Assembly: GCA_965661045.1 (NCBI GenBank)
Contig: CBFICN010000004.1
Location: forward strand, 1 to 55,975
DNA from: an uncultured Myxococcota bacterium
Lineage (GTDB): Bacteria > Myxococcota_A > UBA796
Length of the DNA stretch: 55,975 nt
Direction: 5' to 3'
A program made the translations under genes and the position numbers. The notes beneath the pieces were generated by a model. It was not told the DNA's origin, did no database searches, and saw only the letters and a list, made by a program, of their open reading frames with translations. Of this stretch, positions 17,605 through 55,973 are shown piece after piece; the first letter of the stretch is position 1; every line of letters begins with the position of its first letter.

Positions 17605-17648
17605 AGTATAGTGTTCTGTAAGGGATTGAAAATGGACAGTCTCATCTT

Positions 17649-17839: not shown

Positions 17840-19960
17840 TCATTCTGGTGTGATGGCTTCAATATTGAGAACTTTATTCAACGAAAAACTCAGTTTGCGA
17901 TTGTTCTCCACTACACGACCAACCAATATGGCATTTCCATTCTGACTGGTGGAGACTGTTTCCGGAATGACCGTCATCCAAACGGGGTCTCCAGACTTTT
18001 GAGGATATTCCAATCGAATGTGTTGATTGACTTCAATGGCCTGGGTGCAGATGTTTTTGCAGTGAGAACCCGTTGTGCGAACTGTCTGCAACTCTTCTCT
18101 GTTTTTTGCTTCGGATACATGGCACAGTTCGTAGGGTTGAACACTTGTTGGCGCGGCCAAGTCCAATAAACTTTGCTTCAGTTGACGGGCCTCTTCTACT
18201 TGCTGAGACAAGCGCTCTTTGTCTTGATGAAGTTCGTGATCTTGAGGGTAGTCAATGATGTTGTCACCAAATAAAATTCCCGCTTTGATCATTTCAGATT
18301 CCAATTCTTCCTTTTTATCAGGGTGTACAGCGTACATTCCGGGAATAAAACGATGGACGATGAATGGTTTGAACGCAGAATTCGACTCAAACATTTGTAC
18401 CTGATGTCGCTGAATGGTCAACATCAGAACATTGTGAAAGGTTGCAGATGGATCTTTTCCAAGCCATTTTCGCAATGTGAAATTGACATTTTCAGGGATG
18501 CCCAATTGGCTGTATCGAGTGAAGAATTGGAGTACCTCATCTCTCCTCCAACCTTTCTCTTTTGCCTTTTCGATTGATTGAACGGTCAGTTTGTAGGTGT
18601 TGGCACGGTCACAATTGCTAAACTCACACAGTTCCCCAAGTTTGAACAGCAGTTGGGCAGGGGTGCCAATCGGTGCCACAATCTCAAAGTTTGGCGTTAG
18701 ATAGAATTTGCCAACATCATTCTTTTTCTCTGGTACAATCAAGGAGCGAGCCACCTCTGAGAGTCTGTAAAAGGTTTCTTGCCCCCAGACACCGCGCTCT
18801 AAAAATCCATATCGAAGCAAGGTTGCGAAAGAGGGAATATCGTCGTTGTTCTGTTTGGACCAATCATCGCTGTAGAAACGTTGCCGCCATCGTTCTCCTC
18901 GAATCCAACGTCTATACAGTGATTGGAGTGGATGTGCTGGGAGCCACTCGCCTTTACCTTGATGAACAACCCACAAGAGCCATTCGGCCAAGGCGAACTC
19001 TTCATTCAATTTGGCCATAACCAAACCCGTTCGATCCGATTGTGACATGGACAGCCACTCGTCCAAGACACCAGATACAATGTTCAGTTGCATGTTTTGA
19101 AAACTCAACATGCCGTGACCCAGCAAAAAGTGGAGCAAAAAATCAAACCGTTCGCTGTTTGGAGACCACAGTTGACCAAAGAATGCATCCAATTCTTCGC
19201 GGTCGTTTTTGTGAATGTCATGTTGTTGTGTTAATCGTACAGGTTTTTGATGCAAGTAGCTGGCCAAGGCGACCAAGGAGAAGTCGAATGGGGTAGGCAG
19301 CTTGCCATCACTCTCTAATTCCACGCCTTCATGCGAGAACGTAGGGACTGTTAGGTCATGGCGCAAGGCATGTTCCAGTAGCGGCAGAAGTGGTTCAGGA
19401 ATGATGTAGAAAAAATCATCGCCTTCTGTGGCTGATCGTGCCAATAGGCCAAACTTACCAAGCTTGTCCAACGCCGACACCCAATCTTTATCGCGTCCAC
19501 CGTAAGAACTGATGAGTTCCTCAATGATGTCTCTATTGTGGGCTATCCCACCACATTGAATCAAGCACACAAGTGTGTTGAGGTGATTGGGTTTGAGGTC
19601 TTTTATGAGACTCTTCAAGCGTGTGTCATGACTCAGTGCTTTGGCTGTCAGTTGAACCAAACGCTCAAAACTGTTGATGCGGCTGGGTTGGCCACCGGTA
19701 CTTTTGTAGAGGGCTGTGACCAGTTTGGAGGGCAACTGCTCCAAATACGCTTGCAAACCCGTAGGCTTTTTGACACGGTGTCCTTTTGAAGGGTTCGAAG
19801 GGTAATGTGGCGGGTTTTGTAAAACCGCGGTGGCTTTGTTGGCTTTGCGATAATTGGGTGCATTGGAGGAGCGGTTTTTGTTTGAGCGGTTGCGTCGCGA
19901 CTTCTTCTTTCTGTACTGATTGTTGCGAGAAGATTTGTTTTGCGCGGGTGTGGAACTCAT
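17840..19960 (-). CDS. XPB-associated protein with Helicase_C_3 (XPB-binding/p52-like) domain and C-terminal WYL-like domain
   Basis: FYLTPNFEIVAP...YKLTVQSIEKA...EVLQFF...IPENVNFTLRKW; C-terminal AIEVNQHIRLEY...VIPE...SFSLNKVLNIE; directly downstream of XPB. Confidence 0.75.
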   Translation of the reverse strand: MSSTPAQNKSSRNNQYRKKKSRRNRSNKNRSSNAPNYRKANKATAVLQNPPHYPSNPSKGHRVKKPTGLQAYLEQLPSKLVTALYKSTGGQPSRINSFERLVQLTAKALSHDTRLKSLIKDLKPNHLNTLVCLIQCGGIAHNRDIIEELISSYGGRDKDWVSALDKLGKFGLLARSATEGDDFFYIIPEPLLPLLEHALRHDLTVPTFSHEGVELESDGKLPTPFDFSLVALASYLHQKPVRLTQQHDIHKNDREELDAFFGQLWSPNSERFDFLLHFLLGHGMLSFQNMQLNIVSGVLDEWLSMSQSDRTGLVMAKLNEEFALAEWLLWVVHQGKGEWLPAHPLQSLYRRWIRGERWRQRFYSDDWSKQNNDDIPSFATLLRYGFLERGVWGQETFYRLSEVARSLIVPEKKNDVGKFYLTPNFEIVAPIGTPAQLLFKLGELCEFSNCDRANTYKLTVQSIEKAKEKGWRRDEVLQFFTRYSQLGIPENVNFTLRKWLGKDPSATFHNVLMLTIQRHQVQMFESNSAFKPFIVHRFIPGMYAVHPDKKEELESEMIKAGILFGDNIIDYPQDHELHQDKERLSQQVEEARQLKQSLLDLAAPTSVQPYELCHVSEAKNREELQTVRTTGSHCKNICTQAIEVNQHIRLEYPQKSGDPVWMTVIPETVSTSQNGNAILVGRVVENNRKLSFSLNKVLNIEAITPE

Positions 19961-20041
19961 TGTGGACTCCAAAAATAATTCAGCAAGCTATACAGCACTG
20001 GGGTAGAGAGAATCGTGTGGACGATGATGAACTGTGAAGGA

Positions 20042-21796
20042 TTATGATGGGGTTGAAGCAGGGGACTGGAGCGTGGAAAAGTCATGCAAAAGGTATCGAT
20101 AGCCTTGTCCTGCCAAAAACTTTTGTCGGTTGAGTGCAAAGGTTTGTTCCTTGCTGTCTTTGGTCACCAAAGTATAGAAATGGGCCTTGTTTTCCATCGC
20201 CGGTTTGTTCTTTTTGCCTTTTTTTCCTTTCAGATTCTTGGGGCGTAGGATTCTGCCCAATCGTTGAGCTTCTTCTTGACGAGAACCAAATGTCCCAGAC
20301 AGTTGGATGGCCACATTCGCGTCTGGCAAGTCAATGGAAAAGTTGGCCACCTTACTCACGATCAGCGTTTTGATTTTGCCACTTCGAAATTTCGCAAACA
20401 GATTTTCACGTACGTGGTTGGGTGTTTTTCCCGTTATCACCGGTAAGTTCAACTCTTCACTCATGATGTTCAGCTGCTCAAGGTAGGTTCCAATAATCAG
20501 CACATTGTCTTTTTTGTGCTTGTTCAACAGGTAGCGAACCGCATCGAGTTTTTTTGGATTGGAGCATGCCAGCATGAACTGATCTTTGGGTGCCGCATTG
20601 TCATAGGCTGCCCGCAACTCTCGATCCATTTCTAGATGGATTTCAATACAGGAGATTGCGGCGATGAATCCCAACTTTTGTAAGTCCTGCCACGGTAGTT
20701 CGTAGCGTTTTGGTCCAACCAAGGTAAACACATCCGTTTCTCTACCGTCTTCTCGAACCAGTGTAGCGGTCAGTCCCAAGCGACGCATTGCTTGTAGGTT
20801 GGCGGTGGCTCCAAATACGGGAGCGGGTAGAAGGTGTACCTCATCATAAATGATCAACCCCCAATCTTCTTTGTCAAATATATCCAAATGTGCAAAGCCG
20901 TCGTCTTTGGATTTTTTGTGTGAGACCATTTGGTATGTGGATACAGTCACCGGTTTGAGTACTCTGGAGTCCGCAGTGTAGGCGCCAACATCTCGAGATG
21001 TCAGCGTGGTCTTGCTGATGATTTCTTGAATCCATTGGTTGACAGAAGCTTGGTTGGTTGCCAAGATGAGTGTTTTTCTTTGCACCAAGGACATGGCACT
21101 GATCCCAACGATTGTCTTTCCACCACCGCAAGCCAACACCACAACGCCACATCCACCAGTTGACTTTCCGTCTTGATACCATCGTTTGGCGGCTTCCCAT
21201 TGGTAATCGCGGGGTTCAAAGACGACATCGGTATTTTTGATACGGTCTCTGAGAGAAAATGACAGTGCGGTTCCGGGACGGAAACCCGCGAGGTCTTCTA
21301 CGGGCCAGTCTGCGATGAGGCACTGTTGTTTGAATACGCCACGGTTTGCGACAGAGATGGTGTAGGAGACATTGCGCCGGCGTCCATGTTTGATGAGCAT
21401 GTCCTGAACGAGGGGCTCAGCAGTGAACAGTCTTTGAATGTAAGGGGTTTCAAAAGCCACCTTGAGCTCATCTGGATTGTCCGGATTGGGAAGCAGTTTA
21501 ACCAGTCCATACCGCTCAACCGTGTCGGCAATTAATTCTTCGACTTCTCTGGGGATGGGATATTTGCTGATTTTGTTCAAGCCAGAGACAATCTCTTCAG
21601 TGGTTAAGTTCGATGAAGCCGCATTCCAAAGAGATATGTTGGTGATTTGGTAGGTGTGCAAGGCGTTTGGACTGGACTCTAACTCGGCAAATTGAGTGAG
21701 GAATTCTCGTGCTGCGGGATACTGTTTGTGGTTTGCTTCTACGAGGACTTTCCCGTCTGCTTGCACGATGACTGGGTTGCTGAGTTGAACTTGCAT
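20042..21796 (-). CDS. DNA repair helicase XPB (Ssl2/Rad25/ERCC3 family)
   Basis: NPVIVQADGKVLVE N-terminus, PRDYQ, GVVVLACGGGKT, WGLIIYDEVHLLPAPVF, LGLTATLVREDGRE, SGTFGSRQEEAQRLGRILRPK. Confidence 0.95.
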   Translation of the reverse strand: MQVQLSNPVIVQADGKVLVEANHKQYPAAREFLTQFAELESSPNALHTYQITNISLWNAASSNLTTEEIVSGLNKISKYPIPREVEELIADTVERYGLVKLLPNPDNPDELKVAFETPYIQRLFTAEPLVQDMLIKHGRRRNVSYTISVANRGVFKQQCLIADWPVEDLAGFRPGTALSFSLRDRIKNTDVVFEPRDYQWEAAKRWYQDGKSTGGCGVVVLACGGGKTIVGISAMSLVQRKTLILATNQASVNQWIQEIISKTTLTSRDVGAYTADSRVLKPVTVSTYQMVSHKKSKDDGFAHLDIFDKEDWGLIIYDEVHLLPAPVFGATANLQAMRRLGLTATLVREDGRETDVFTLVGPKRYELPWQDLQKLGFIAAISCIEIHLEMDRELRAAYDNAAPKDQFMLACSNPKKLDAVRYLLNKHKKDNVLIIGTYLEQLNIMSEELNLPVITGKTPNHVRENLFAKFRSGKIKTLIVSKVANFSIDLPDANVAIQLSGTFGSRQEEAQRLGRILRPKNLKGKKGKKNKPAMENKAHFYTLVTKDSKEQTFALNRQKFLAGQGYRYLLHDFSTLQSPASTPS

Positions 21797-44822: not shown

Positions 44823-47171
44823 ATGAATCTTGACAGTCTTTACATCGCGTTGCCATCTCAATCACCCGCTGACATTAAGGAGTGGTGGTCGCAATATTCA
44901 AATGCGCATTCTGATGCGGACCGCGATGGTTTCTTTCAGTGGCTGTTTGAGCAAAAACACTTGACCGATCTGGAGTATTGGGACGCCTTAAACGGCGCCG
45001 ATATGAGTCTGTCTGCCGATTTGGGATCGGAATTGCTCGCCGATGACAGCACTCAAGTACGAGAAGAACCCTATCAGTTCATCGCGGAACTGGGCGTGGG
45101 GGCAATGGGTGAAGTGCACATTGTTCGAGAAGGTTTCCTGCGTCGAAAAGTGGCATTGAAGTTTATTCGAACAGACAGGGCCAATGAGCGAACATCCGCT
45201 CGGTTTGTTCGAGAGGCGCTCATTACGGCACAACTCGATCACCCAAACATCGTGCCCATTTACAATTATGAGCAAAGTTTGCACGGCAATCCTGCATACA
45301 CCATGAAGTGGATCAAAGGACGCACATTTGAGGAGATTCTCAAAGAGTGTCGACATGAGGTTGACTATGGGCAATCGATGGGCGCACCGACACTGGTAGA
45401 ACGGTTGGACCTCTTCGTCAAACTGTGTGAAGCCATGCATTACGCGCACTCCAAACAGGTGATCCATCGAGATTTGAAACCTGCCAATGTCATGGTTGGA
45501 CCCTTCGGTGAACTCTACGTTATGGATTGGGGAATTGCACGGGTGGTGGGACAAGCCGATGAGGCGGATCCAACTTTTGATGGCAATGCCAGTGACGACA
45601 ACGAAAGTCTTGATCTTACTGGAGATGGTTTTGACACCCAAGATGGTTCAATTGTGGGAACGATAGCCTACCTGTCACCAGAACAAGCCCGAGGGGAAAT
45701 TGCCGATTTGACTGTCGCCAGTGATCAGTATGCGCTGGGGTTGATTTTGTTTGAACTCATCACTTTGACCAAAGGTGTGCAACGGGGCAAGACACGTGAA
45801 ATGTTGCGACGTGCACAACGTGGTCAGTTGGCACCAATCGTGCATTACAGTCCGGCTATGGAAGTGGCACCTGAGTTGCAGGCAATCATTCAAAAGGCCT
45901 GTGCTTTTTTGCCTGAGAATCGGTATCCATCCGTAGAGAACCTCGTTGAAGATGTTCGTTCATTCATGCGTGATGAACCCATTTCCGTGTACAAAGATCC
46001 GCCGTTGACTGTGATTATGCGGTGGGTGTCCAAGCACCGTTTGCAAGCTTTTGCGCTTGGTGTTTTTGTGGTGTTCGTTGGGCTGGCGGTGTCTCTCTAT
46101 TCATTGTCGCGAGAGCAACAGGTGCGAGAGCAGAATTTGATTCGAGAGCAGGAATTGCAAGCCGCAATCCAGATTCGCAACAAGCACTTGGGTCAACTCA
46201 TGGCCGACACGGCTCAACAAGCCAATGAGATGGCGCAGTCCTTGCTCTATTTTGAGGGGTTGCTTCGAGAGTTGACAGCGTCTGCAAAGACCCGTTTGCT
46301 CTTTGCCCAAACGGCCCCGCCAGAACAGATTTTTCACCACACCGATTACGGCAGTCCTGCAACAGCCCCATCAGATTTGGCACTGTCTGCGCGGTATGAT
46401 ATTGAATTGTCCACAGAACATCCGGTGGTGAAACTGGCACCCGATGTCTCTTTGACATCTGCGGTTCAGCATCAAGAAGCGTTGTTGGTTTCTCTCCGAC
46501 CAGTCTTTCAAAATGTATTTGCGCAAAGTGTATCGGAAGAGGGCCTCCCTTTTGCAGAATTGGATGTGGCAATTCGAGAGACCGGTACACCCATGGTGTG
46601 GACCTATGTGGCGTTGGAAACGGGGATTCATGTCGCTTATCCCGGAAAGGGTACGTACAGTGCTGAATATGATCCCAGAAAACGACCGTGGTACCAAGAT
46701 AGTTTGACCCATATCAACCCAACTTGCTTACCCCCCTATGAGGACAGTATGGGACAAGGGTTGTTGTTGCCTTGTACGATGGTGGTCTCGTCTGAGGACA
46801 ATGAAATCTTGGGTGTGGCTGGGATTGAGTTGTCTCTTGAGCAATTCAGTCGTGAGATTTTGGGATTTCAATCGAAGGTGGTTGCCGAAGGGTCTGTTCA
46901 CTCTTTATTGATTGCCAGCGATGGAGAAGTGCTTGCCGCACACAACGCAACGCAAAAAGTTGGAGAACAGTTCAGTAATTCCGTGGTACTCAAGCAAGTT
47001 CAAGCCGGTCGTGCGGGATACAGTCTGATCGATGAGCGTACCCAGCAAGAGATGGTGCAAGCAGATCCGCTGACGATGCCAGATGCGGACTTGTATCTAT
47101 ATCAGCCAGTTGGCTCTGACGGTTGGGTATACATTGTGTATGGTCGAGCGGAAGATATGCTGCCAAAATGA
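44823..47171 (+). CDS. Receptor-type Ser/Thr kinase with single TM and C-terminal dCache_1 sensor domain
   Basis: LGVGAMGEV, VALK, HRDLKPANV, DWG, GTIAYLSPEQ; TM near 46040-46105; YDPRKRPWY, PYED, ILGVAGIE Cache motifs. Confidence 0.88.
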   Translation: MNLDSLYIALPSQSPADIKEWWSQYSNAHSDADRDGFFQWLFEQKHLTDLEYWDALNGADMSLSADLGSELLADDSTQVREEPYQFIAELGVGAMGEVHIVREGFLRRKVALKFIRTDRANERTSARFVREALITAQLDHPNIVPIYNYEQSLHGNPAYTMKWIKGRTFEEILKECRHEVDYGQSMGAPTLVERLDLFVKLCEAMHYAHSKQVIHRDLKPANVMVGPFGELYVMDWGIARVVGQADEADPTFDGNASDDNESLDLTGDGFDTQDGSIVGTIAYLSPEQARGEIADLTVASDQYALGLILFELITLTKGVQRGKTREMLRRAQRGQLAPIVHYSPAMEVAPELQAIIQKACAFLPENRYPSVENLVEDVRSFMRDEPISVYKDPPLTVIMRWVSKHRLQAFALGVFVVFVGLAVSLYSLSREQQVREQNLIREQELQAAIQIRNKHLGQLMADTAQQANEMAQSLLYFEGLLRELTASAKTRLLFAQTAPPEQIFHHTDYGSPATAPSDLALSARYDIELSTEHPVVKLAPDVSLTSAVQHQEALLVSLRPVFQNVFAQSVSEEGLPFAELDVAIRETGTPMVWTYVALETGIHVAYPGKGTYSAEYDPRKRPWYQDSLTHINPTCLPPYEDSMGQGLLLPCTMVVSSEDNEILGVAGIELSLEQFSREILGFQSKVVAEGSVHSLLIASDGEVLAAHNATQKVGEQFSNSVVLKQVQAGRAGYSLIDERTQQEMVQADPLTMPDADLYLYQPVGSDGWVYIVYGRAEDMLPK

Positions 47172-47341: not shown

Positions 47342-48142
47342 ATGGGTGTAGAAAAAAAACTGAAAATTGTGACGTGGAACATCAACGGCATCAAAGCTCG
47401 TCGTCCTTATTTGGAACTGTTTTTGGATGAGCAGAGTCCAGACATTCTTTGTATACAAGAACTCAAATCTCTCACAGACAAAGTCCCCACGGAAATTTTC
47501 ACAGAACGCGGGTATGAGGTTGCTGTATTTGGACAAAAGTCGTGGAATGGTGTCATGATTGCCTCAAAATACCCGATGACCGATGTCGAAATGGGGTTGC
47601 CAGACAACGGACACGAAAATCAGTCGCGGGCACTTGCGGCCACGATCAAAGGAATACGCATCATAAACCTGTACTGCCCTCAAGGACAGTCAGCGGACTC
47701 GGAGGCGTTTCAGTTTAAAAAACGTTTCTACGATCGACTTCAGGGTTGGATTGAATCGGTTCACACACCTGAAGATGAACTGATCATCACAGGAGATTTC
47801 AACATTGCCCCGAAGAGGATTGACGTGTATGACTTCAGTGTATTCAATGGCGTTCCGACACACCACCCAGACGAGTTGACACGTTGGTATCGACTCTTGG
47901 AATGGGGACTCTTTGATCTCAGTGAAGGAATACTGACGCCTGGGACATACACCTTTTGGGACTACCGCAGATTGGCATTCCCAAAAAATAACGGTCTACG
48001 CATTGACCATTTCGTGGGAACCGAGGTGATTCAACAGCGCACGGATGATGTACAGGTCATCCGAGACTTTCGAAAGAAAAAAAATGGTTTGACCGCCAGT
48101 GATCATGCTCCAGTAGCACTGTCATTGAAGCAGAAAGACTAA
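47342..48142 (+). CDS. xth: Exodeoxyribonuclease III / AP endonuclease
   Basis: IVTWNINGIKAR, DILCIQELK, GQKSWNGV, NLYCPQG, TGDFNIAP, YTFWDYR, GLRIDH, SDHAPV. Confidence 0.95.
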   Translation: MGVEKKLKIVTWNINGIKARRPYLELFLDEQSPDILCIQELKSLTDKVPTEIFTERGYEVAVFGQKSWNGVMIASKYPMTDVEMGLPDNGHENQSRALAATIKGIRIINLYCPQGQSADSEAFQFKKRFYDRLQGWIESVHTPEDELIITGDFNIAPKRIDVYDFSVFNGVPTHHPDELTRWYRLLEWGLFDLSEGILTPGTYTFWDYRRLAFPKNNGLRIDHFVGTEVIQQRTDDVQVIRDFRKKKNGLTASDHAPVALSLKQKD

Positions 48143-48735
48143 TCTATTTGCTTGAAGAGTTGTTGAACCTTTCCCTGTGCCAGCGCAATTTCTTCTGGTT
48201 TCATGTGGGATGAGATGGCGTCGATCATTTTGTTGGCCCGTTCTTGATTGAGTCCATTGGCCCCAAGTTTGCTGCGTTCAAACCAAAAGTAGGACTCTAT
48301 GAGATTCACATCAAAACCACGACCAGAGGCGTAGCGGGCACCCAGGTTGTATTGGGCTTGAAAATGTCCCAGTTTGGCGGCTTGTAGATAGAGATCATTG
48401 GCTTTTTGTTCATCAGCATCGACCCCTTTGCCATAGGAATAGAGCATCGCCAAGTTGTTCATCGCCCAAGTGTCTCCGTGCTCTATGGCTTTGTGGTACC
48501 ATTGTGCAGCCTGAGATGCATCGGCAGGTACACCGCGTCCGTGTTCAAACAACAGTCCAATGGCGTATTGAGCTTGAGGATGGTTTTCCTTGGCGGCTTG
48601 TTGATACCACTCCATGGCTTCGGTGTAGCTTTGTGGGACGCCGCGTCCAAATTCAAACATTTGCCCCAGTTCATATTGTGCTTGCGGGTTTCCATTGAGG
48701 GCCGAGTCTTTGAGAGTGTCGGTTGATTCGGACAT
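48139..48735 (-). CDS. Sel1-like repeat protein
   Basis: Four repeats AQYELG/AQYAIG/AMNNLA/AQYNLG...GxGV...WY; AAGGAG RBS. Confidence 0.92.
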   Translation of the reverse strand: MSESTDTLKDSALNGNPQAQYELGQMFEFGRGVPQSYTEAMEWYQQAAKENHPQAQYAIGLLFEHGRGVPADASQAAQWYHKAIEHGDTWAMNNLAMLYSYGKGVDADEQKANDLYLQAAKLGHFQAQYNLGARYASGRGFDVNLIESYFWFERSKLGANGLNQERANKMIDAISSHMKPEEIALAQGKVQQLFKQID

Positions 48736-48926
48736 GAGTACTCCTTTTTTGATACAGTCACCATAGAGGGTAGTGAAAGCGAAATAATTCGGATATGATA
48801 GAAGAGACTTCAACTTCAATGCAGTGTTGCAATCTTCAAGTATAGATGTATCTCAAATTTAATTGGTTTAGTGTGACTTTTTACAATTGACGATCCAGTA
48901 TATGAACGGTTGCTTGAGAGGATTTC

Positions 48927-50165
48927 ATGGCCAAGAACATGTGGGGAAAACAACCGCCCAAAAAACAAGCCTACACACCCCCTGAGCTTGGAACCCCAAA
49001 CTTTTGGGGGCCGGCTCCCGTACCGCCGAAAGTTTACCAAACGTGGGACGACATCAGAGGGGAAGGACGTGACGGAGAAGATTCTGACGCCCCGGAAGGC
49101 ATTGGTGATGCAGGTGCCCATGATTCTTGGGTGTCTCAGTTTTCTAAGCGCTTTGCCATTTCAGCGCCATCGATTGCCGGGGAAGGGAGAGACGGAAACT
49201 CGTCGGGTACGGAAGGTAGATCTTCGACCGCCAATACCGTCAACATTGCCGGAGAAGGCCGTGATGGAGAAGAGGCAGAGGACAAAGGCAGCTTAACCTA
49301 TGGAGCACACGACAGTTGGGTTACAGGCTTCGAAAAAGAACTGGCCAGTAGCACAGCAGGTTCAGCGGACCCCACGCCAAGAGAGCAAGGTGCAGGTGGG
49401 CACGACTCTTGGGTGTCTCAGTTCTCTCAGCAGATGAGCAGTGATCCCTTTACGGTGTCTGGCGAAGGTGCAGATGGCAATTACATGGCGTCGCCGGTTG
49501 CCAAGCCTGCGGTTCAACCAATGTCCAGCATCTTTGGCGAGGGCCGCGATGGACAGGACGCACAATCTCCAGACGGGTTGGAAGAAAGCAACAAGCACGA
49601 ATCATGGGTCAACGCCTTCAAAAAGGAGCTGGTCAAGAGTGAAGGGACAAGTTGGAGAGCGCCCGTACCAGCGAGTCCAGCGATTGCATCATCTGGATTT
49701 ACAAGTGGTCCAGCAGCCACAAAAGAAGCGCCTGCGGATAAGTTTGTCGGACAGTGGAACTTTCGTGTCAAAATTAATGGAATACCCGATGACAATTGCA
49801 AACTGTTGAGCATTTCGGGATTGTCCAGTGAAACTGAGCCCATTGAGTTCAAGCGCAGCACGCGTCAATATGTGGAAGCCATACCGGGTAAATTCAAATA
49901 TTCCAATGTTGAATTGACCAAAGTGATGAATCTTGGTGGTGACTCTTTTGCCAATTGGCGGACTGAGATTGAAAATGGGGCCAATGACACCCGTACCATC
50001 ACGGTGTATTTGCACCATATTGATCTGAAAGGGGATCCGGTCATGGTGTTGACACTCCATGATGCATGGCCTCTAAAATGGGAGTTTCCAGAGCTCAGTG
50101 GGTCGTCGTCGGATGCAGCCATCGAAAAAATCACGTTGAACGTGGGGCGCATTACGCGAGGGTAG
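48927..50165 (+). CDS. Phage/CIS tail tube (T4 gp19/Afp1-like) domain fused to a ~270-aa repetitive N-terminal extension
   Basis: C-terminal ~142 aa: WNFRVKINGI, SISGLSSETEPIEF, IPGKFKYSNVELTK, FANW, RTITVYL, LHDAWPLKW..PEL, AAIEKITL; GAGG RBS. Confidence 0.8.
   Translation: MAKNMWGKQPPKKQAYTPPELGTPNFWGPAPVPPKVYQTWDDIRGEGRDGEDSDAPEGIGDAGAHDSWVSQFSKRFAISAPSIAGEGRDGNSSGTEGRSSTANTVNIAGEGRDGEEAEDKGSLTYGAHDSWVTGFEKELASSTAGSADPTPREQGAGGHDSWVSQFSQQMSSDPFTVSGEGADGNYMASPVAKPAVQPMSSIFGEGRDGQDAQSPDGLEESNKHESWVNAFKKELVKSEGTSWRAPVPASPAIASSGFTSGPAATKEAPADKFVGQWNFRVKINGIPDDNCKLLSISGLSSETEPIEFKRSTRQYVEAIPGKFKYSNVELTKVMNLGGDSFANWRTEIENGANDTRTITVYLHHIDLKGDPVMVLTLHDAWPLKWEFPELSGSSSDAAIEKITLNVGRITRG
49053..49619 (+). 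repeat. Interspersed coding repeats: 5x GEG(R/A)DG and 4x H(D/E)SWVxxF
   Basis: IRGEGRDG, IAGEGRDG x2, VSGEGADG, IFGEGRDG; AHDSWVSQF, AHDSWVTGF, GHDSWVSQF, KHESWVNAF; DNA copy TCTTGGGTGTCTCAGTT occurs twice. Confidence 0.9.
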
Positions 50166-50222: not shown

Positions 50223-52601
50223 TTATTTGGGTGAGTCCACATTCGAAAATCGATCAACTTGAATGGTGATGTGGTCTCCGTTGCCGTGTGCATCTTCAAC
50301 CGCAATGGTGTGCGTTCCTTCGGAGGGGGTCCACCACAGTTCGATGGACTCTTGACTGTACCCCAAGAATTGATCGTCAATGTACCAGTACAATTTGGCG
50401 TGTGGATCGCTGTGGTTGGCTTGTAGGGGGATTCGTTGATCGCTTCCGTCGTCCAGCAGAAGAATGCGGTGGTTGGATTTGGGGTGCTCAATCAGCAGTG
50501 TGGAGTGCAATGTTGCGATGTTTTCACAGTTTTTTGCCAGAGGTGGCAGGTCTACAGGCAGTTTGGACCAGCGCTGAAAAGCCATCGAAGGGACCCATAC
50601 CGTATGTGGTTTGAGTGTCGTGTTGCTGCACTGTGGAGCGGTGCGTCGACCATTGGCATCGACAAATATGGTGTGGTGTTGTGTACATTTTTCTGTTGGG
50701 ACACGTGTCTTTAGGGCCAAAGTTTCAACGGTGTCATGACAGGCTTTTGAGGGCAATAGACCGGTTTGAGAACAGACGTCAATTGAGGTCAGCGAACCTG
50801 GCTTTGGTGGTGGTAGAAAGGGGTCTTCCAGTCGTTCCATCAATTCAAAAAATACTGTCCCTGCCGCTTGCGAGCCAATCAAGTGCACGCTGGACGTGTG
50901 ATCGAGGTTTCCAAACCAGACGGTTGAGACAAAATCATCGCCCCACCCGGAGGTCCACGCGTCGTGAAATCCAAAACTGGTACCCGTTTTCCAAGACAGA
51001 GGACGGTGTTGGGCGGTGTATTCCATTCGATCAGGGAAGTCGGGACGATCTCGTTGACGCAAGGCCTCTCCGGTCAACCAGGCGGCCCCATCACTAATGG
51101 GGGAATCTCCCAATGGATGTTTGAGCAAAATGTGTTGCTCAAGGCTTGGATCACTGAGCAAAGACAACGGTGTAGAACGTCCAAGGTTTGCCAACGTGGT
51201 ATAGGCTTGAGCCAATTCCAGAGGGGTCAGTTCCAATCCAACGGCAGCGGATAGCCCCAGTCGATCGCGGTGTGCTTCAAACTCTCGAATGCCCAACTGT
51301 GAGAGCAAGTGCAAAAATTCGTTGAGTCCCATTTCGGACAGCAGTTCAATGAAGGGAATGTTGTAGGACTGGGAGAGGGATTCGCGAAGCGTGACCAAAC
51401 CATGATATTCTGCGCCGTAATTTCGAGGTTGATAGCCCCGAAAGTTCTGTGGAATGTCTTCCATGATTCGAACGGGGGTGGCTTGTCCCAGATCAATGGC
51501 CATGGCGTACAAAAATGGCTTTAGGGTGGAACCAGCAGAACGCGTGACAGAATAGGAAGGAATGGTGGAACCATGCTCACCAGACCAATAGTCGAAATTT
51601 CCCATCAACCCTCGAATCTCGCCGGTGTGTTTGTCGGTGACAATCAGCGCTGAATTGTGAATCCCCAGTTTGGTATAGTGTTGCCGACGCGAAGTCAGCA
51701 ACTGTTGCAGCGTGGATTGAACATCCGAGTCCAATGTGGTCAACACTTTTTGTGATGGTTTCAACCGAGGTGTGAGTTGGTCCATTAGGTGGGGCAAATC
51801 CCTGGGGAAATCTAAAAATTTCGTGGGGACGGGCTTTGTCAAAATGTGATTGTTGAATTCGGCATCGTCTTTGATCGGCAGGGTTTGATTTCGATAGAGG
51901 AGTTTGGCGATGTGGTTTCGACTGTGTCGAAGTCGTTCTTGATTGTTGGGGTGTGGGTAGCGCGCGTTTGGATTTTGTGGGATGGCGATCAGCAACGCAA
52001 TCTGGTGGGCTTCGAGTTGGGTGGGGAGGTGTCCAAAGAATGCGAGCGAGGCGGCTTCAATGCCTTCAATATTTCGACCAAACGGAATGAATGACAGATA
52101 CAGTTCGAGAATTTCAGATTTTGAAAAATGCCATTCGAGTTGCATGGCTCTCCACGTTTCAATCAACTTGGAACGGTAGGTTCGAGGGCGTGGCTCTGCG
52201 ATTCGAACCAGTTGCATTGTCAGTGTACTGGCACCCGACACGACTTCTCCAGTCAACGTGTTTTGCACCAGCGCACGGAGAATGGACAGCGGATCAAATC
52301 CAGTGTGCCAAAAGAATCGCTCGTCTTCAATGCTGAGCAATGCGTCGATGTAGGCAGGGTCTACGTCATCCAAAGATACTTTGCTGCGCCAACGGTCATC
52401 TGGCGCCAATTGAATGTGACCGACGGAGCCATCACGGTAGAGCAGCATCGGGGAATGGCTTTCGGTCAATCGGAGTGGCAAGTCGATCGTTTCGAAAGAG
52501 CCGAATAGTCCAAATAGTCCGACGGTGGAGGTGAGCAACGCCACTCGAAATGGTTGTGTGGTGACGTTGCTCAACCGACTCCAGAGGAAAGAACGGGACA
52601 T
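50223..52601 (-). CDS. pbpC: Penicillin-binding protein 1C
   Basis: Transglycosylase EDERFFWH.G.D, SGASTLTMQLVR, SKLIE, ILELYL; transpeptidase GSTLKPF, SYN, KTGTS.G.HDAW; C-terminal beta domain; adjacent to alpha-2-macroglobulin. Confidence 0.95.
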   Translation of the reverse strand: MSRSFLWSRLSNVTTQPFRVALLTSTVGLFGLFGSFETIDLPLRLTESHSPMLLYRDGSVGHIQLAPDDRWRSKVSLDDVDPAYIDALLSIEDERFFWHTGFDPLSILRALVQNTLTGEVVSGASTLTMQLVRIAEPRPRTYRSKLIETWRAMQLEWHFSKSEILELYLSFIPFGRNIEGIEAASLAFFGHLPTQLEAHQIALLIAIPQNPNARYPHPNNQERLRHSRNHIAKLLYRNQTLPIKDDAEFNNHILTKPVPTKFLDFPRDLPHLMDQLTPRLKPSQKVLTTLDSDVQSTLQQLLTSRRQHYTKLGIHNSALIVTDKHTGEIRGLMGNFDYWSGEHGSTIPSYSVTRSAGSTLKPFLYAMAIDLGQATPVRIMEDIPQNFRGYQPRNYGAEYHGLVTLRESLSQSYNIPFIELLSEMGLNEFLHLLSQLGIREFEAHRDRLGLSAAVGLELTPLELAQAYTTLANLGRSTPLSLLSDPSLEQHILLKHPLGDSPISDGAAWLTGEALRQRDRPDFPDRMEYTAQHRPLSWKTGTSFGFHDAWTSGWGDDFVSTVWFGNLDHTSSVHLIGSQAAGTVFFELMERLEDPFLPPPKPGSLTSIDVCSQTGLLPSKACHDTVETLALKTRVPTEKCTQHHTIFVDANGRRTAPQCSNTTLKPHTVWVPSMAFQRWSKLPVDLPPLAKNCENIATLHSTLLIEHPKSNHRILLLDDGSDQRIPLQANHSDPHAKLYWYIDDQFLGYSQESIELWWTPSEGTHTIAVEDAHGNGDHITIQVDRFSNVDSPK

Positions 52602-52604
52602 CTG

Positions 52605-55600
52605 TTAGAGTTGTTCTCCCTTCCAGTCTCCGGATATCCGTACCATCGTGCCCTTGTGTCTGGACCAAATGGTGTCGTCGTACATGGCTTCGATGCTGAC
52701 AGGTGGGATGGTGAATGTTCCACTGGTGGTGGCGCGGGCAACATAGACGATGCTTTTTGTCCCGCCTCTGTGCAAGTCACCAAACACACGCAATTCACTG
52801 TCTTGTACGCTGAGGTAATCGGTGGACCATGTGGACACGGTGGTGAATTGCTCTGGGTTGATGCCGTTGGCCTGTAGGTTGGGGTTTTGGATCTCCCATC
52901 CTGCAGGAATTCGATCCACCAAAGCCAGTTCATTGAGGTCTTCCGAACTTTTGTTGGTGACCGTTAGAACCACAACCACTTCATCACCGAGGTTTTGGGT
53001 TTCTGGATTGAATGTTGTTCCATCCATGTTTCGGTAAGTCCGCGACACTTCTAGACCATTGTCGCCATACTGGTAATCCCCATTTGAACGGACCCCTTGG
53101 GTTGACAGCAGCAAAAACCCATCGGAGCCACTGCCCTTCACGGTCAGGGTATCGCCTTTGCGCTCAGTATCCCAGACGGTCCAAGAACGGTTGCCATCCT
53201 TGTTGCTGCTGGCGGTGAGCGCCTGTTTATTTTTGAGCAAGGTGGGTGCAGTCCAATCGCTGTCAAGAAGTACTCTCTGCGCCAGTGCAAACGTACTCCA
53301 CCCCAAAACCTGCGTGGAAGGGTAGCGTGTTTTGTAGGTTAAAATTTCTTGATGAATGTTCATCGCCAAGGCATTCCCCGCCTTGGTTTGGCTTCCAAAG
53401 AGTTCTTGGTGTAGACTGAGAATTAAGGCCTTAGAACGAAGTTTACTGCGGAAAGACCAAGGGTTGTAGCCTGTGGAGATCTCATCCAAGTTGGTGAGTT
53501 GCTTGAGTTCTTCTTCATAGGTGCGATCTCCACTGAGATACAGGGCCGTTTTGAGCATAAACTCAGATTCATAACTGTCAAAGTCCGACCGCTCTAACAA
53601 AGTGCGAATGGCGACAGGCTTGCCTCGCTCTGAGCGTGCCAACAAATAATGAGCGTAGGGTTTGGCTGTTGGCATGTAATCAGAATAGTAGCTGTAATCC
53701 ATGGAACCATTGCTCATGCGTTCCAAATAATCCAGACTTCCATTCAACAGACTGTCCATGACAGGGTGCCCAGCAGCTTTGGCATCCAACAGTACGTGGG
53801 TTGCATAGGCGGTGCCCCAAGGGTGTGACTGTTGGTTCCCAGGCCAATATCCAATGCCACCATCGCTCGTTTGCATGGAGGCCAACCGTTCGATGCCTGC
53901 CAGTACCATCTTTTCGACTGGCTTTTGAGTCAAAGTTGCGGGGTCCACGATTTCCAAGATGTCGGCAGCCGACAGCAGTGGGCGCAGTGAAGAAGACGTT
54001 TGTTCGACGCAACCGTAGGGGTATCGAATCAAATCGCGTACCCGTACCAAAGATTCCGAGTATGGATTGTTGGTTGCCCAAATGTTGGTGTCTTCAACCG
54101 TCCAGCCTTGAACATAGGCAGAGATGTCGGCTGTTCCGTTGAGGTTTCCACCCAGTACGTCCTTTAGGTGTATGCTGGTAAAGGAGCGTTCGGTTGGTTT
54201 GCGAGAGCCAAACGGCACTTCCAATTGTTCTTTAGACTGCAAGGAGCCGTCGGCATTTTCTGCGATGACATTGAACGTTGCAAAACCACTTTCTGCCAGT
54301 GCCTTCGCTTTGAAAACCAAGACGGTTTGCTCATCGGCGGCGATGGTGACAGTTCTTTTGTCTTTGTTCAAAAACTGGATTGTCTTTGTTTGAATGGCTT
54401 CTGTGCGACCGAGTGGAATACTGCTCTCAGCATCCAAAGAAACGGTGACGGTTTGTTCTTTGCCACTGAGGTTGGTCAAAAATACCGGAACATCAAAGAC
54501 ATCGCCCTCAGTTAAAAAGCGCGGCAACGTTGCTTGCATGGTCAGCGGGTCGCGAACCAAGACGTTGTCATCGGCGGAAGCAAAGCGCGTCGGAGAGGCA
54601 GACCAAGCCATGACCCGAACAGAGCCACTGTATTGTGGAATGTCAAATTCTGCGCTGGCGGTACCATCACTGTTTACATCAACCAGCCCCGACCACAGAG
54701 CGACGGGTTTGACGACTTTGGCTTTGCGACGGGCATTGCCTTCACCTGCACCCCCACCAGCCGGTGCGGAATCCATCGATGGAGAAGATATACCCCACCC
54801 AACAGTTTCAGCCGTTTCGACGTCCAGTGGCATTTTTGGAAAGAGGGCATCCGATGGATCGGGTGTGGCAAAATTGGTCAGTGAGAGCAAGCCTTCATCG
54901 ACGACGGCAACCATCGCGACCGTATCGTCTTCAACCGTACCACCCAAATCCAGGTTGACGGTCATTGTGCTGTTGGCTTGCACTTCTGTAGGGGCATCGA
55001 TGCTCAGTGTGTGGTTGAAGTTTTTGCTGCGGACTTTGATCGGTTGTGTTCCAAAGGCTCGAGACGGCATGTACGCTAGCTCTGAGTCACTGTGGGCATC
55101 TTTGACGAGCAAGGCGGTCGCGTAGACCGTGTTTTGAAATGCCTGACCGGCCAGCGAAAATTGCCATTGAACCTCTCCAGCCTCTTCTATGTCCATCCAC
55201 TCTTGTCGAATGATTCCGTCATTCTCGATGGTCCACAACAGTTTTCCGGGGTAGGGGACGACCGTTGTCGCCGTCACGGTTTCTTTGAGGTTCATAGATT
55301 CTGGAACGTGAATGTCCAGAGAGTCTGGTCGGAATGGGTCTGGTGTTTGAACGCGGGTTCGAGAGTACCAGTAGCCGTAAGCGCGCTCCAAGTCCAAAAA
55401 TGTGATGTTGGTTCCTGACTGGGCACGGATGCGATACTCTTTGACGCGGCGATCACCTTTGACTGAAAACTGGAACAAGCCTTTGTTGACTGGGACTGTT
55501 TGCGTATGCAATGGCTTTTCAAAGCGTTTGTAAGACACCTCATATCGATGAGACTCTTCGTTGAACGACCAATTGCTCGAATAATCCACTTCACTGAATT

Positions 55601-55973
55601 GGATGTCGACAGCGGCCAACGAATTTTGACGATGGCCATCCCAATCGACGACGATGCCACTCACTGGGTATTCAACGTTGGGTTTGAACTCTTCGGGGTC
55701 AATGCCGATTTGCAATCCCAAGTAGGTTTCCGTTGGGTGTACCTTCATGCGACTGGACCGCTTTGTGCTACGTCCAGAACCACTTTCGAGAACATCGATG
55801 GAGGCGACAACAGTTGCCATCCCTGGAAGACCAGACAATCGTTCAGGGTTGGGACATTCAAAGGTTCCTGTTCCGGCTTCGTCTAGTGTACCAGTGACGG
55901 TGCCCAGGTAAAAGTTTTCGAAGGCCGTTGGAGAACCATAGGTGTAATTGCGGTTGGCTTTTGGACTGAAAGG
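52605..55973 (-). CDS. Bacterial alpha-2-macroglobulin (YfhM-like), 5' end beyond the window
   Basis: Thioester YPYGCVEQT, AVVDEGLL.LTNF, ATLPRFL..GD, LVDRIPAGWEI.NP, EAMY; frame stays open to the window edge. Confidence 0.94.
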   Translation of the reverse strand, partial: PFSPKANRNYTYGSPTAFENFYLGTVTGTLDEAGTGTFECPNPERLSGLPGMATVVASIDVLESGSGRSTKRSSRMKVHPTETYLGLQIGIDPEEFKPNVEYPVSGIVVDWDGHRQNSLAAVDIQFSEVDYSSNWSFNEESHRYEVSYKRFEKPLHTQTVPVNKGLFQFSVKGDRRVKEYRIRAQSGTNITFLDLERAYGYWYSRTRVQTPDPFRPDSLDIHVPESMNLKETVTATTVVPYPGKLLWTIENDGIIRQEWMDIEEAGEVQWQFSLAGQAFQNTVYATALLVKDAHSDSELAYMPSRAFGTQPIKVRSKNFNHTLSIDAPTEVQANSTMTVNLDLGGTVEDDTVAMVAVVDEGLLSLTNFATPDPSDALFPKMPLDVETAETVGWGISSPSMDSAPAGGGAGEGNARRKAKVVKPVALWSGLVDVNSDGTASAEFDIPQYSGSVRVMAWSASPTRFASADDNVLVRDPLTMQATLPRFLTEGDVFDVPVFLTNLSGKEQTVTVSLDAESSIPLGRTEAIQTKTIQFLNKDKRTVTIAADEQTVLVFKAKALAESGFATFNVIAENADGSLQSKEQLEVPFGSRKPTERSFTSIHLKDVLGGNLNGTADISAYVQGWTVEDTNIWATNNPYSESLVRVRDLIRYPYGCVEQTSSSLRPLLSAADILEIVDPATLTQKPVEKMVLAGIERLASMQTSDGGIGYWPGNQQSHPWGTAYATHVLLDAKAAGHPVMDSLLNGSLDYLERMSNGSMDYSYYSDYMPTAKPYAHYLLARSERGKPVAIRTLLERSDFDSYESEFMLKTALYLSGDRTYEEELKQLTNLDEISTGYNPWSFRSKLRSKALILSLHQELFGSQTKAGNALAMNIHQEILTYKTRYPSTQVLGWSTFALAQRVLLDSDWTAPTLLKNKQALTASSNKDGNRSWTVWDTERKGDTLTVKGSGSDGFLLLSTQGVRSNGDYQYGDNGLEVSRTYRNMDGTTFNPETQNLGDEVVVVLTVTNKSSEDLNELALVDRIPAGWEIQNPNLQANGINPEQFTTVSTWSTDYLSVQDSELRVFGDLHRGGTKSIVYVARATTSGTFTIPPVSIEAMYDDTIWSRHKGTMVRISGDWKGEQL

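What the first reader, a model, noticed from the sequence alone, without database searches (positions are those of the whole stretch)
48927..50165. Orphan contractile-tail tube protein fused to a long repeat-bearing disordered arm
Seen: the last ~142 aa (from 49737) carry T4 gp19/Afp1-type tube motifs, preceded in frame by ~270 aa of G/S/E/A/P-rich sequence. No sheath, baseplate, spike, tape-measure or capsid gene is in the window; the neighbours are a Sel1 gene and pbpC. Known: eCIS, T6SS and phage tubes are typically about 150-aa hexameric-ring subunits encoded beside sheath genes, and T6SS Hcp-effector fusions usually extend at the C-terminus. Inference: either a specialised subunit that co-polymerises into a remote eCIS tube to carry or recruit cargo, or a domesticated sheath-less tube forming a cytoplasmic filament or scaffold with multivalent arms. 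Best candidate for an undescribed system here.
Basis: partly seen in the sequence, partly recalled or inferred. Interest (0 to 1): 0.88.

Follow-up and report, generated by a model that had tools for sequence, protein, structure and literature searches.

The report
Injection-system tube protein with disordered arm
A marine myxobacterium makes a building block of a phage-tail-like injection tube that carries a long, floppy, motif-studded arm, encoded far from the injection machines but sharing a control sequence with one of them.

Summary
Window 48927-50165 (+) is a real 412-aa gene. Residues 276-407 are a full contractile-injection-system (CIS) inner-tube domain (PF06841, 78 bits). It follows a 265-aa disordered, acidic arm with 5 GEGRDG-type and 4 HDSWVxxF motifs and a Pro-rich 45-aa head.

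The fusion is made:
- The SD and ATG are conserved.
- No in-frame start lies between codons 218 and 294.
- dN/dS is 0.008 (head), 0.053 (arm) and 0.020 (tube).
- The architecture recurs in about 28 metagenomic proteins and 4 of 4 genomes of the genus.
- Public contigs bridge the junction.

It is "orphan" only within the contig. The genome has two CIS loci elsewhere. The tube domain is a paralogue of the C37-locus tube (36.6% identity, no gaps). Both genes carry the same rare upstream ACTTCA tandem element. A related genome encodes an independent N-armed tube between sheath and tube of the orthologous operon.

Best reading (about 0.45): an accessory, sub-stoichiometric tube subunit, probably at the apical tube end, whose arms are multivalent tethers. 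The partner is unknown. A payload role and a sheath-independent assembly are not excluded.

It is a new variant of a known kind, the nearest analogue being specialised Hcp.

The parts
48770..48818 (+). Conserved upstream block GTAGTGAAAG..AATTCGGATATGAT..GACTTCAACTTCA. The ACTTCA tandem repeat lies at 48807-48818, 109 nt before the ATG.
   Evidence: The sub-blocks are invariant in 5 of 5 orthologous intergenic regions whose flanks have diverged. The exact 12-mer occurs at only 3 loci in the genome, where 1.4 are expected. One of them lies -52..-30 from the C37 tube gene. There is no Rfam match.
48916..48922 (+). Shine-Dalgarno-like GAGAGGA, 4 nt before ATG 48927
   Evidence: Read from the sequence. 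TG.GAGG plus ATGGC is conserved in 5 of 5 orthologues.
48927..49061 (+). Head, residues 1-45: basic (+3), 20% Pro, MAxNxWGKQPPKKxAYTPPxLxTPxFWGPAPVPPKVYxxW
   Evidence: It is nearly invariant over 24 aligned family members down to 37% identity. dN/dS is 0.008 against L011.
49062..49721 (+). Disordered acidic repeat arm, residues 46-265. GEGRDG-type motifs start at nt 49059, 49179, 49251, 49461 and 49536. HDSWVxxF motifs lie at nt 49116-49142, 49305-49331, 49398-49424 and 49593-49619.
   Evidence: for the repeats. pLDDT is below 50. dN/dS is 0.053. The motif is present in 3-8 copies in all 12 family members examined, with a 38-aa or 54-aa period in some.
49722..50165 (+). CIS inner-tube (gp19/Cis1-type) domain, residues 266-412, plus the stop codon
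   Evidence: PF06841 at 78.4 bits. Fold TM 0.75 to solved CIS tubes. 36.6% identity over 142 aa without gaps to the C37 operon tube. dN/dS is 0.020.
48139..48735 (-). Divergently transcribed Sel1-repeat protein (198 aa from the conserved Met). It is a conserved neighbour and has not been shown to be a partner.
   Evidence: PF08238 x4. It is adjacent to the armed gene in L011, L013, L014 and L036, but not in L037.

Best explanation
The gene encodes an accessory inner-tube subunit of a contractile injection system (CIS).

Shown:
- It is translated as one 44-kDa protein.
- Its C-terminal 147 residues are a complete, strongly conserved Cis1-type tube domain, paralogous to the tube of the genome's C37-type CIS.
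- Its N-terminal 265 residues are a selected, disordered, acidic arm. The arm has a conserved Pro-rich head and a variable number of HDSWV/GxGxDG repeat units.

Inferred:
- The tube domain enters hexameric rings of the CIS tube. In this genus that is most likely the C37-type tube, with which it shares an upstream ACTTCA-repeat element.
- A tube subunit's N-terminus lies at the apical, ring-stacking face, next to the cap and the sheath end.
- Six arms would need about 5 times the lumen volume of one ring. The armed subunit therefore cannot build the body of a sheathed tube.
- It is most plausibly present in one or a few rings at the apical end. There the six arms per ring can escape and act as flexible, multivalent tethers, with 24 HDSWV sites per ring here.
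- The binding partner is unknown. It could be cargo, a capping factor, a membrane or envelope anchor, or other particles.
For: The fusion is real and selected:
- A conserved SD and ATG precede the gene.
- No in-frame ATG/GTG/TTG lies between codons 218 and 294.
- dN/dS is 0.008, 0.053 and 0.020 for head, arm and tube.
- 28 homologues were found, 27 of them with PF06841.
- The full-length gene is in 4 of 4 genomes of the genus among 151 genomes of the order.
- Public contigs bridge 49385-49779 with no joint.

The tube domain is intact:
- Searches show domain and fold.
- It is collinear with operon tubes apart from a one-residue insertion.

Links to a CIS:
- C37 holds an operon with sheath, tube, second tube, CIS_tube, VgrG-like, gp25-like (24.2 bits, below Pfam's 27.2 cut-off) and a weak TIGR02243 baseplate-assembly match (37.9 bits, cut-off 155.8).
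- In the tree the family is a 98/95 clade. The C37 tube branches directly outside the group that it forms with the C-armed tubes (89/89).
- The exact ACTTCAACTTCA occurs at 3 loci in 4.3 Mb, where 1.4 are expected. One is upstream of this gene, invariant in 5 of 5 orthologues. One is upstream of the C37 tube, as x3+1, and is kept in all 3 genus relatives: the full x3+1 in two and three exact hexamers in the third (G081). One lies in a coding region.
- In G125 an independent 411-aa N-armed tube lies between the sheath (56% identical to the C37 sheath) and the 148-aa tube of the orthologous operon.

Geometry:
- The Afp1 N-terminal helix unfolds in the cap-bound apical ring and follows the Afp16 linker (PMC6851490, passages).
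- The N-termini of the last six SalCis1 protomers change on cap binding (PMC13266070, passages).
- The lumen is 3.6 nm wide (PMC8894135, passages) and the sheath rise is 39.2 A. Six arms take 201 nm3 against 40 nm3 of lumen per ring.

The C37-type locus has no Pfam-detectable cap. The single Pvc16_N gene in each of 6 of 6 genomes sits in the other locus.
Against: - No direct evidence of assembly into any tube, and none of ring formation. Neither was modelled or measured.
- The gene is never inside a CIS operon in the loci I could see. L011, L012, L013, L014, L036, L037 and L027 were examined.
- G019 (88% complete) has a distant armed gene, but no C37-type sheath or tube was found there. The link to that CIS type cannot hold for the whole family.
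- The ACTTCA element is confined to one genus. It is absent upstream of the tube in G071 and of the armed genes in L014 and L037. It was also found post hoc, after trying three sub-motifs.
- The G125 arm is not homologous to this arm (hhalign probability 0.2%).
- Genomes with tube genes but no armed gene are common (145 of 151 with any tube match, 6 with an armed form). The arm is therefore dispensable for CIS as such.
- Placement at the apical end is inferred from other systems' structures, read as text passages only.
Confidence: 0.45

Rival explanations
1. Payload reading. This would be an 'evolved tube', the CIS counterpart of a specialised Hcp. The tube domain serves only to get the protein into the expelled tube. 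The arm is the delivered effector, and its repeated HDSWV motifs bind or sequester something in the target cell.
For: - Anything covalently joined to a tube subunit leaves with the tube. This is inference.
- Specialised Hcps with extensions are an established class (PMC8262886, passages).
- A weakly supported sister clade (81/81) carries 390-455-aa acidic repeat arms at the C-terminus.
- Repeat number and sequence evolve fast. Copies range from 3 to 8, and full-length identity across the genus is 61-92% against 97-99% for the operon tube. That pattern is usual for molecules facing a target.
- eCIS cargo start with disordered N-terminal loading sequences (bioRxiv 10.64898/2026.05.27.728243, passages).
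Against: - The arm has no enzymatic or toxin domain. Pfam, NCBIfam and PHROGs gave nothing and the protein atlas gave no look-alike.
- The most conserved part is the head, not the repeats. That fits an interaction with a conserved partner of the producer.
- The head and arm occur on no other protein among 1.84 billion representatives. There were 18 hits, all family members or fragments apart from two tandem-repeat artefacts. So it is not a shared loading signal.
- No immunity-like gene is apparent beside it.
Confidence: 0.2
2. Sheath-independent assembly. The protein forms hexameric rings or a bare 'bottle-brush' tube on its own, in the cytoplasm. It would act as a scaffold or chaperone platform unrelated to firing, perhaps tied to the neighbouring Ser/Thr-kinase and Sel1 genes.
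For: - The gene sits in a stable chromosomal neighbourhood of kinase-dCache, Exo_endo_phos, Sel1, armed gene and pbpC/A2M. This is kept down to 33% identity.
- Distant members lie among housekeeping or signalling genes: PP2C plus HD, and NifU.
- G019 has the gene without a C37-type CIS.
- 27.7-kDa arms on every subunit fit only a tube without a sheath.
Against: - The upstream element is shared with the C37 tube gene.
- All 6 armed-gene genomes except the 59%-complete G086 also have CIS tube genes.
- An armed tube is encoded inside a CIS operon in G125.
- The tube domain is under purifying selection as strong as expected for a stacking subunit, and it stays collinear with operon tubes.
- No evidence links it functionally to the neighbours.
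Confidence: 0.2
3. Lumenal ruler or plug. The arms of an apical or basal ring thread into the tube lumen. There they act like a tape measure or a stopper.
For: - Six arms (166 kDa) would fit the lumen of a tube of about 20 rings (with dimensions).
- The repeat units are regular (38 aa) in several members.
- The other CIS locus has an in-operon tube paralogue with a basic N-terminal extension.
Against: - The arm is acidic (net -19), while the inner surface of known CIS tubes is negative (PMC8894135, passages).
- The model shows essentially no helix in the arm, only one 3-residue helix at residues 73-75, unlike tape measures.
- The C37 operon already has a 423-aa protein in the usual tape-measure position.
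- Repeat number varies 3-8 within close relatives whose tube proteins are 97-99% identical.
Confidence: 0.08

Closest known systems
CIS inner-tube proteins Cis1/Afp1/Pvc1/Alg1 (and the Cis5/Alg5 adaptor), Pfam PF06841
   Same: - Same domain and fold: 78 bits, TM 0.75-0.77.
- 36.6% identical and gap-free to the genome's own operon-encoded tube.
   Different: - 412 aa instead of about 150 aa, with a 265-aa disordered arm on the N-terminus.
- Encoded away from sheath and baseplate genes.
- Family-specific invariant residues, such as GQW for GAF and EKITL for ETITL.
Specialised ('evolved') Hcp of the type VI secretion system, e.g. Hcp-ET (PMC8262886, passages read)
   Same: A tube subunit carrying an extra polypeptide, often encoded apart from the main cluster. 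The concept is a structural subunit doubling as a carrier.
   Different: - Those are Hcp/TssD-family proteins with C-terminal extensions of more than 60 aa that are folded toxins.
- Here the tube is gp19/Cis1-type, the extension is N-terminal, it is disordered and repeat-bearing, and it has no toxin domain.
eCIS cargo with disordered N-terminal loading sequences (PVC, Afp18, AlgoCIS Cgo1/2; bioRxiv 10.64898/2026.05.27.728243 and 10.1101/2023.11.13.566157, passages read)
   Same: A disordered, polar N-terminal region on a protein associated with a CIS.
   Different: - What follows the disordered part is a tube domain, not an effector or DUF4157.
- The head and arm are shared with no other protein.
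- The gene is not next to a CIS locus.
N-armed tube inside the C37-type operon of genome G125 (locus L032), and C-armed tubes of G061/G031 (L029, L030). These are found here and are undescribed as far as my searches show.
   Same: - Cis1-type tube domains of the same bacterial order with arms of 260-455 aa. The C-terminal arms of L029/L030 are Gly-rich repeats; the G125 arm is Ala-rich and was not examined for repeats or disorder.
- The G125 gene shows that an armed tube can be a CIS operon member.
   Different: - The G125 arm is not homologous (hhalign probability 0.2%) and is near neutral in charge.
- The L029 and L030 arms are C-terminal and much more acidic, at -73 and -64.

Membership tests
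CIS/myophage inner-tube protein (PF06841, Cis1/Afp1 type) | Match to PF06841 above the gathering score over the whole domain | tested here: met
   78.4 bits against 28.2, profile positions 2-131 of 134.
CIS/myophage inner-tube protein (PF06841, Cis1/Afp1 type) | Tube beta-sandwich fold with a single helix | tested here: met
   AF2 model residues 279-411. Foldseek E 6e-11 to 7e-9, TM(target) 0.75-0.77 to Alg5, Alg1, Pvc1 and Afp1.
CIS/myophage inner-tube protein (PF06841, Cis1/Afp1 type) | Single-domain subunit of about 140-170 aa | tested here: not met
   412 aa, with a 265-aa N-terminal arm that is translated and selected.
CIS/myophage inner-tube protein (PF06841, Cis1/Afp1 type) | Encoded beside sheath and baseplate genes | tested here: not met
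   No other CIS gene on the 56-kb contig, nor in 7 related loci.
CIS/myophage inner-tube protein (PF06841, Cis1/Afp1 type) | Forms hexameric rings that stack into a tube inside a sheath | not tested
   No oligomer model or experiment was done here.
NCBIfam CIS1_fam / CIS5_fam equivalogs | Score above the curated equivalog cut-off | tested here: not met
   CIS1_fam 24.4 against 220 and CIS5_fam 49.1 against 260. The genome's own operon tube fails in the same way, at 26.3 and 55.5. This says little about function.
Specialised Hcp (Hcp-ET type) | Hcp/TssD-family tube domain | tested here: not met
   The Pfam scan at E <= 0.1 lists only PF06841 and a sub-threshold DUF5576.
Specialised Hcp (Hcp-ET type) | C-terminal extension of more than 60 aa carrying a toxin domain (definition from PMC8262886) | tested here: not met
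   The extension is N-terminal, disordered, and has no domain hit.
eCIS cargo with N-terminal loading sequence | Disordered N-terminal region followed by an effector (often DUF4157), encoded by or near the eCIS cluster | tested here: not met
   The N-terminus is disordered. It is followed by a tube domain, with no DUF4157, and the gene is not near a CIS.
Tape measure protein | Long, largely helical protein encoded between tube and baseplate-hub genes | tested here: not met
   Only one 3-residue helix in the arm. The gene lies outside any operon.

The most novel reading that the evidence does not exclude
Armed tubes would be a distinct class of CIS component in marine Myxococcota. These are Cis1-type subunits bearing long disordered repeat arms, at the N- or the C-terminus. 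They would give the particle a flexible, polyvalent brush at a tube end, used to capture cargo, replace a cap, or tie particles to each other or to the envelope. The window's family would be the dispersed version, co-regulated in trans through an ACTTCA-repeat element. An even bolder form is that the protein builds a sheath-free bottle-brush filament with a cellular role of its own.
Probability: 0.25. Interest if true: 0.8.

Novelty: new variant of a known kind. Interest (0 to 1): 0.6.

Why it matters
CIS tubes are regarded as plain stacks of about 150-aa subunits. Cargo is thought to ride in the lumen or on the spike.

A conserved, selected tube paralogue with a 28-kDa multivalent arm suggests another way to attach things to these machines, or to terminate or connect them. 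Together with N- and C-armed cousins in the same bacterial order, it could offer a natural template for engineering loadable tube subunits.

The clade matters ecologically. In marine Myxococcota a PF06841 tube gene is reported among the most highly transcribed genes (PMC11937823, passages read).

The shared ACTTCA element also gives a concrete handle on how dispersed CIS genes might be co-regulated.

Tried and rejected
- Sel1 as binding partner of the arm: complex prediction with the Sel1 alignment (5 rows) and arm residues 1-140 (24 rows) gave score 0.00, verdict 'no answer'. It counts neither for nor against.
- Homology of the G125 arm to this arm: rejected (hhalign probability 0.2%, only a 12-residue AYxPPE patch). 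I do not use that motif.
- L033 (1083-aa frame) and L034 (239-aa frame, with withheld bases): judged GC-rich open-frame artefacts, with true starts just before the tube domain. I dropped them.
- Arm as a module on other proteins: 18 hits among 1.84 billion representatives. All are family members or fragments, apart from P0035 and P0036, which are unrelated tandem-repeat proteins.
- Protein atlas: no usable hit.
- Rfam on 48600-49100: no match at E <= 1.
- RTX-like reading of GEGRDG: considered and dropped, because the motifs are isolated (24-70 aa apart) and not tandem nonapeptides. This comparison is from recall, not from a call.
- Sigma-70 scan: nothing upstream of the gene.
- Metagenome scan: only 2 further loci.
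- RNA evidence: one metatranscriptome holds two short contigs, 48873-49069 and 49911-50120, with 4 and 8 differences. These are contigs of a relative in an RNA library, so they do not prove transcription.
- Parts of the stretch without contig cover mean nothing.
- Literature: searches found no description of a CIS tube protein with an N-terminal disordered arm. These cover only the held open-access library.
- Supplementary tables S14-S16 of PMC11937823 could show whether armed genes are among the highly expressed tube genes.

For the alignment I used 23 of the 28 hits plus the query. I left out P0012, P0013, P0015, P0018 and P0019, which are fragments of 240-296 aa. For the tree I used 14 of those family proteins plus 10 locus-derived tube domains.
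Full report
WHAT IS THERE

The window is the whole of contig C4 of a 4.32-Mb, 439-contig, 78%-complete genome. Close relatives are labelled as uncultured marine Myxococcota MAGs.

The ORF at 48927-50165 (+) encodes 412 aa.

- **Tube domain.**
  - Residues 276-407 match PF06841 (Phage_T4_gp19) over essentially the whole profile, at 78.4 bits against a cut-off of 28.2.
  - NCBIfam and PHROGs agree on 'tail tube' at lower scores.
  - An AlphaFold2 model built on a 24-member family alignment gives a confident beta-sandwich with one helix for residues 279-411. Residues 1-266 are almost wholly below pLDDT 50.
  - Foldseek places the folded part with solved CIS tube chains (Alg5, Alg1, Anabaena, PlPVC1, Pvc1, Afp1, CIS-Sc) at TM 0.75-0.77.
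  - A profile search of PDB sequences finds the same proteins, 10 sequences in all, best 6.5e-16.
- **Arm.**
  - It is rich in G, S, A, E and D, with net charge -19, 27.7 kDa and pI 4.6.
  - It carries five GEGRDG-type and four HDSWVxxF motifs, also visible as DNA repeats.

IS THE FUSION MADE?

Yes.

- GAGAGGA lies 4 nt before ATG 48927, and both are conserved in 5 of 5 orthologues.
- There is no in-frame ATG, GTG or TTG between codons 218 and 294, so no stand-alone tube can start near 49730.
- Against the 92%-identical orthologue L011, dN/dS is 0.008 for the first 45 codons, 0.053 for the arm and 0.020 for the tube domain. dS exceeds 1 throughout.
- A homology search gave 28 proteins, 27 of them with PF06841. 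Most have the same architecture, down to 33-39% identity at full coverage.
- In the alignment the first 45 residues (MAxNxWGKQPPKKxAYTPPxLxTPxFWGPAPVPPKVYxxW) are as conserved as the tube domain. The number of repeat units varies.
- Contigs of public DNA runs cover the start, the arm and the arm-to-tube junction (49385-49779) without joints or indels.

THE ARM

- Every one of 12 family members examined has 3-8 copies of an [H/A][D/E]SW[V] motif.
- In several members the copies form a strict 38-aa period (P0024, P0026, P0020) or a 54-aa period (P0028).
- The first copy sits at a fixed distance from the head.
- The motif reads as a short amphipathic element (W-V-x-x-F-x-K-x-L). That is my reading of the sequence.
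- The arm module is unique to this family.
  - Its motifs occur in no other frame of the genome.
  - An exhaustive phmmer search with the arm alone against 1.84 billion representatives returned 18 hits. All are family members or fragments except two unrelated tandem-repeat proteins.

NOT ORPHAN AT GENOME LEVEL

The genome has two CIS loci.

**C37 locus**
- It carries a 633-aa sheath, a 149-aa tube, two unassigned proteins (187 and 423 aa) and a second tube.
- It also carries a CIS_tube protein, a VgrG-like hub, a gp25-like protein (24.2 bits, below Pfam's 27.2 cut-off) and an 832-aa protein with a weak TIGR02243 baseplate-assembly match (37.9 bits, cut-off 155.8).
- Four further genes follow, one of which looks multi-pass membrane by eye.
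- It is divergent from gspC/gspD.

**C57 plus C45 locus**
- These two contigs are one operon in G019.
- It carries a Pvc16_N cap, two sheaths and a 305-aa tube paralogue with its own basic N-terminal extension and an internal insertion.
- It also carries a 1303-aa protein, a CIS_tube-LysM protein, a GPD hub, Baseplate_J and Tail_P2_I.

Tube genes are near-universal in the order: 145 of 151 genomes have a match.

RELATION TO THOSE LOCI

**Paralogy**
- The armed protein's tube domain is 36.6% identical over 142 aa, without gaps, to the C37 tube. It is only 24% identical to the second C37 tube.
- In a tree of 24 tube domains the armed family is a clade (98/95).
- That clade is weakly sister (81/81) to tubes with long C-terminal arms from the same bacterial family.
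- The C37 tube is the next branch outward (89/89).

**Shared upstream element**
- The Sel1-to-armed-gene intergenic region contains a block that is invariant in 5 of 5 orthologues.
- Its ACTTCAACTTCA repeat occurs exactly at only three places in the assembly, where 1.4 are expected.
- The first is here. The second is (ACTTCA)3-A5-ACTTCA at -52 to -30 from the C37 tube's start codon. The third is inside a coding region on C62.
- The C37 copy is kept in all three genus relatives. G013 and G066 keep the full (ACTTCA)3-A5-ACTTCA and G081 keeps three exact hexamers, one being mutated.
- Both loci also share ATAATTCGGA.
- With one site given, I estimate the chance that one of the two others falls within 150 nt upstream of one of about five tube-type genes at roughly 2e-4. 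Allowing for the three sub-motifs I tried, that becomes roughly 1e-3.
- The element is genus-specific. It is absent upstream of the tube in G071 and of the armed genes in L014 and L037.

**An armed tube inside an operon**
- In genome G125 (a different family of the order) a 411-aa protein with a 262-aa N-terminal arm and a Cis1-type domain lies between the sheath and the 148-aa tube.
- That operon is orthologous gene for gene to C37, with sheath 56% and the 832-aa baseplate protein's counterpart 37% identical.
- Its arm is not homologous to this one, so armed tubes arose more than once.

WHERE AN ARM COULD GO

From passages read in structural papers:
- The N-terminal helix of Afp1 unfolds in the cap-bound apical ring and follows the Afp16 inter-domain linker (PMC6851490).
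- The N-termini of the last six SalCis1 protomers change conformation on binding the cap (PMC13266070).
- The AlgoCIS lumen is 3.6 nm wide and negatively charged (PMC8894135).

With a 3.92-nm rise, one ring encloses about 40 nm3. Six arms need about 201 nm3.

I infer that the armed subunit cannot make up the body of a sheathed tube. It fits best as one or a few rings at the apical end, where the N-termini are free.

The C37-type locus has no Pfam-detectable cap in any of the six genomes checked. The single Pvc16_N gene always sits in the other locus. This is suggestive only, because an unrecognised cap may exist among the unassigned genes.

WHAT SPEAKS AGAINST, OR LIMITS, THIS READING

- Nothing here shows ring formation or incorporation.
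- The gene is never in a CIS operon in the seven related loci seen.
  - The kinase / Exo_endo_phos / Sel1 / armed gene / pbpC / A2M synteny holds in L011 to L014 and L036.
  - The most distant members lie beside PP2C plus HD, or NifU plus acyl-CoA dehydrogenase.
- G019, at 88% completeness, has an armed gene but no C37-type sheath or tube.
- Only 6 of the 151 genomes searched have an armed form of this family.
- The arm's partner is unknown.

COMPARISON WITH WHAT IS KNOWN

- By domain and fold the protein is a member of the gp19/Cis1 tube family. It fails that family's usual size and gene-context features.
- Functionally its nearest analogue is the specialised Hcp of type VI secretion. Those are defined by C-terminal toxin extensions on an Hcp-family core (PMC8262886). 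Here the extension is N-terminal, disordered and repeat-bearing.
- It also recalls the disordered N-terminal loading sequences of eCIS cargo, but that module is attached to effectors, not to a tube.
- My seven literature searches found no description of such a protein. This covers the held open-access library only.
- PMC11937823 (passages) reports very high transcription of PF06841 genes in marine Myxococcota MAGs. Its supplementary tables, which I could not open, might include armed genes.

VERDICT

- 'Orphan' is true only of the contig.
- The gene is best seen as a new variant of a known kind: an accessory, arm-bearing CIS tube subunit.
- There is indirect evidence that it is linked to the C37-type CIS in this genus.
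- The role of the arm remains open.

Noticed in passing
G000 contig C44:5873-6160 (not in the window): An ORF-poor intergenic stretch of about 290 nt after a hairpin. It holds several (A/C)CTTCA hexamers, including ACTTCAACAAT (the same 11-mer as upstream of the C37 tube) and CCTTCAACTTCAAC. It may be a third site of the ACTTCA element, or a small RNA.
   Followed up: partly
G000 contig C45:18593-19510 (locus L009:17704-18618, minus strand): This is the tube paralogue of the second CIS locus. It has a basic G/K/P-rich N-terminal extension of about 100 aa and a Gly/Ser-rich insertion of about 50 aa that splits the PF06841 match in two.
   Followed up: partly
L029:2415-4220 and L030:1847-3472 (genomes G061, G031): Cis1-type tubes with C-terminal arms of 390-455 aa. 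The arms are very acidic (net -73 and -64) and Gly-rich, with DPTAxxNGGDGxGP and DPNEExWD motifs. No CIS genes were seen on the short contigs.
   Followed up: partly
L032:8446-9681 (genome G125): A 411-aa N-armed tube encoded between the sheath and the 148-aa tube of a C37-type operon. Three TGTTCC hexamers lie just upstream of the 148-aa tube gene.
   Followed up: partly
L044:9182-9607 and L045:10899-11351 (genome G019): Two standard-size tube genes with no other CIS gene on contigs of 10.7 and 15.3 kb. Dispersed tube genes are therefore not unique to the armed family.
   Followed up: no
G000 contig C37:2197-4083 and 16757-20351: The C37 CIS operon includes a 628-aa protein that looks multi-pass membrane by eye. 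It is divergent from gspC/gspD of a type II secretion system. The same arrangement is found in G071.
   Followed up: no
window 44823-47171 and L037:53-1243: A Hanks-type Ser/Thr kinase with a dCache sensor lies two genes upstream of the armed gene and is conserved down to 40% identity. A distant armed gene is instead flanked by a PP2C phosphatase. The Ser/Thr-rich arm could be a phosphorylation target, which is pure speculation.
   Followed up: no
window 50223-55973 (minus strand): A pbpC gene followed by a gene of at least 1122 aa that I took for an alpha-2-macroglobulin-like protein by its position next to pbpC. That identification is from recall and was not scanned. The pair is convergent with the armed gene and syntenic in L011, L012 and L036.
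   Followed up: no
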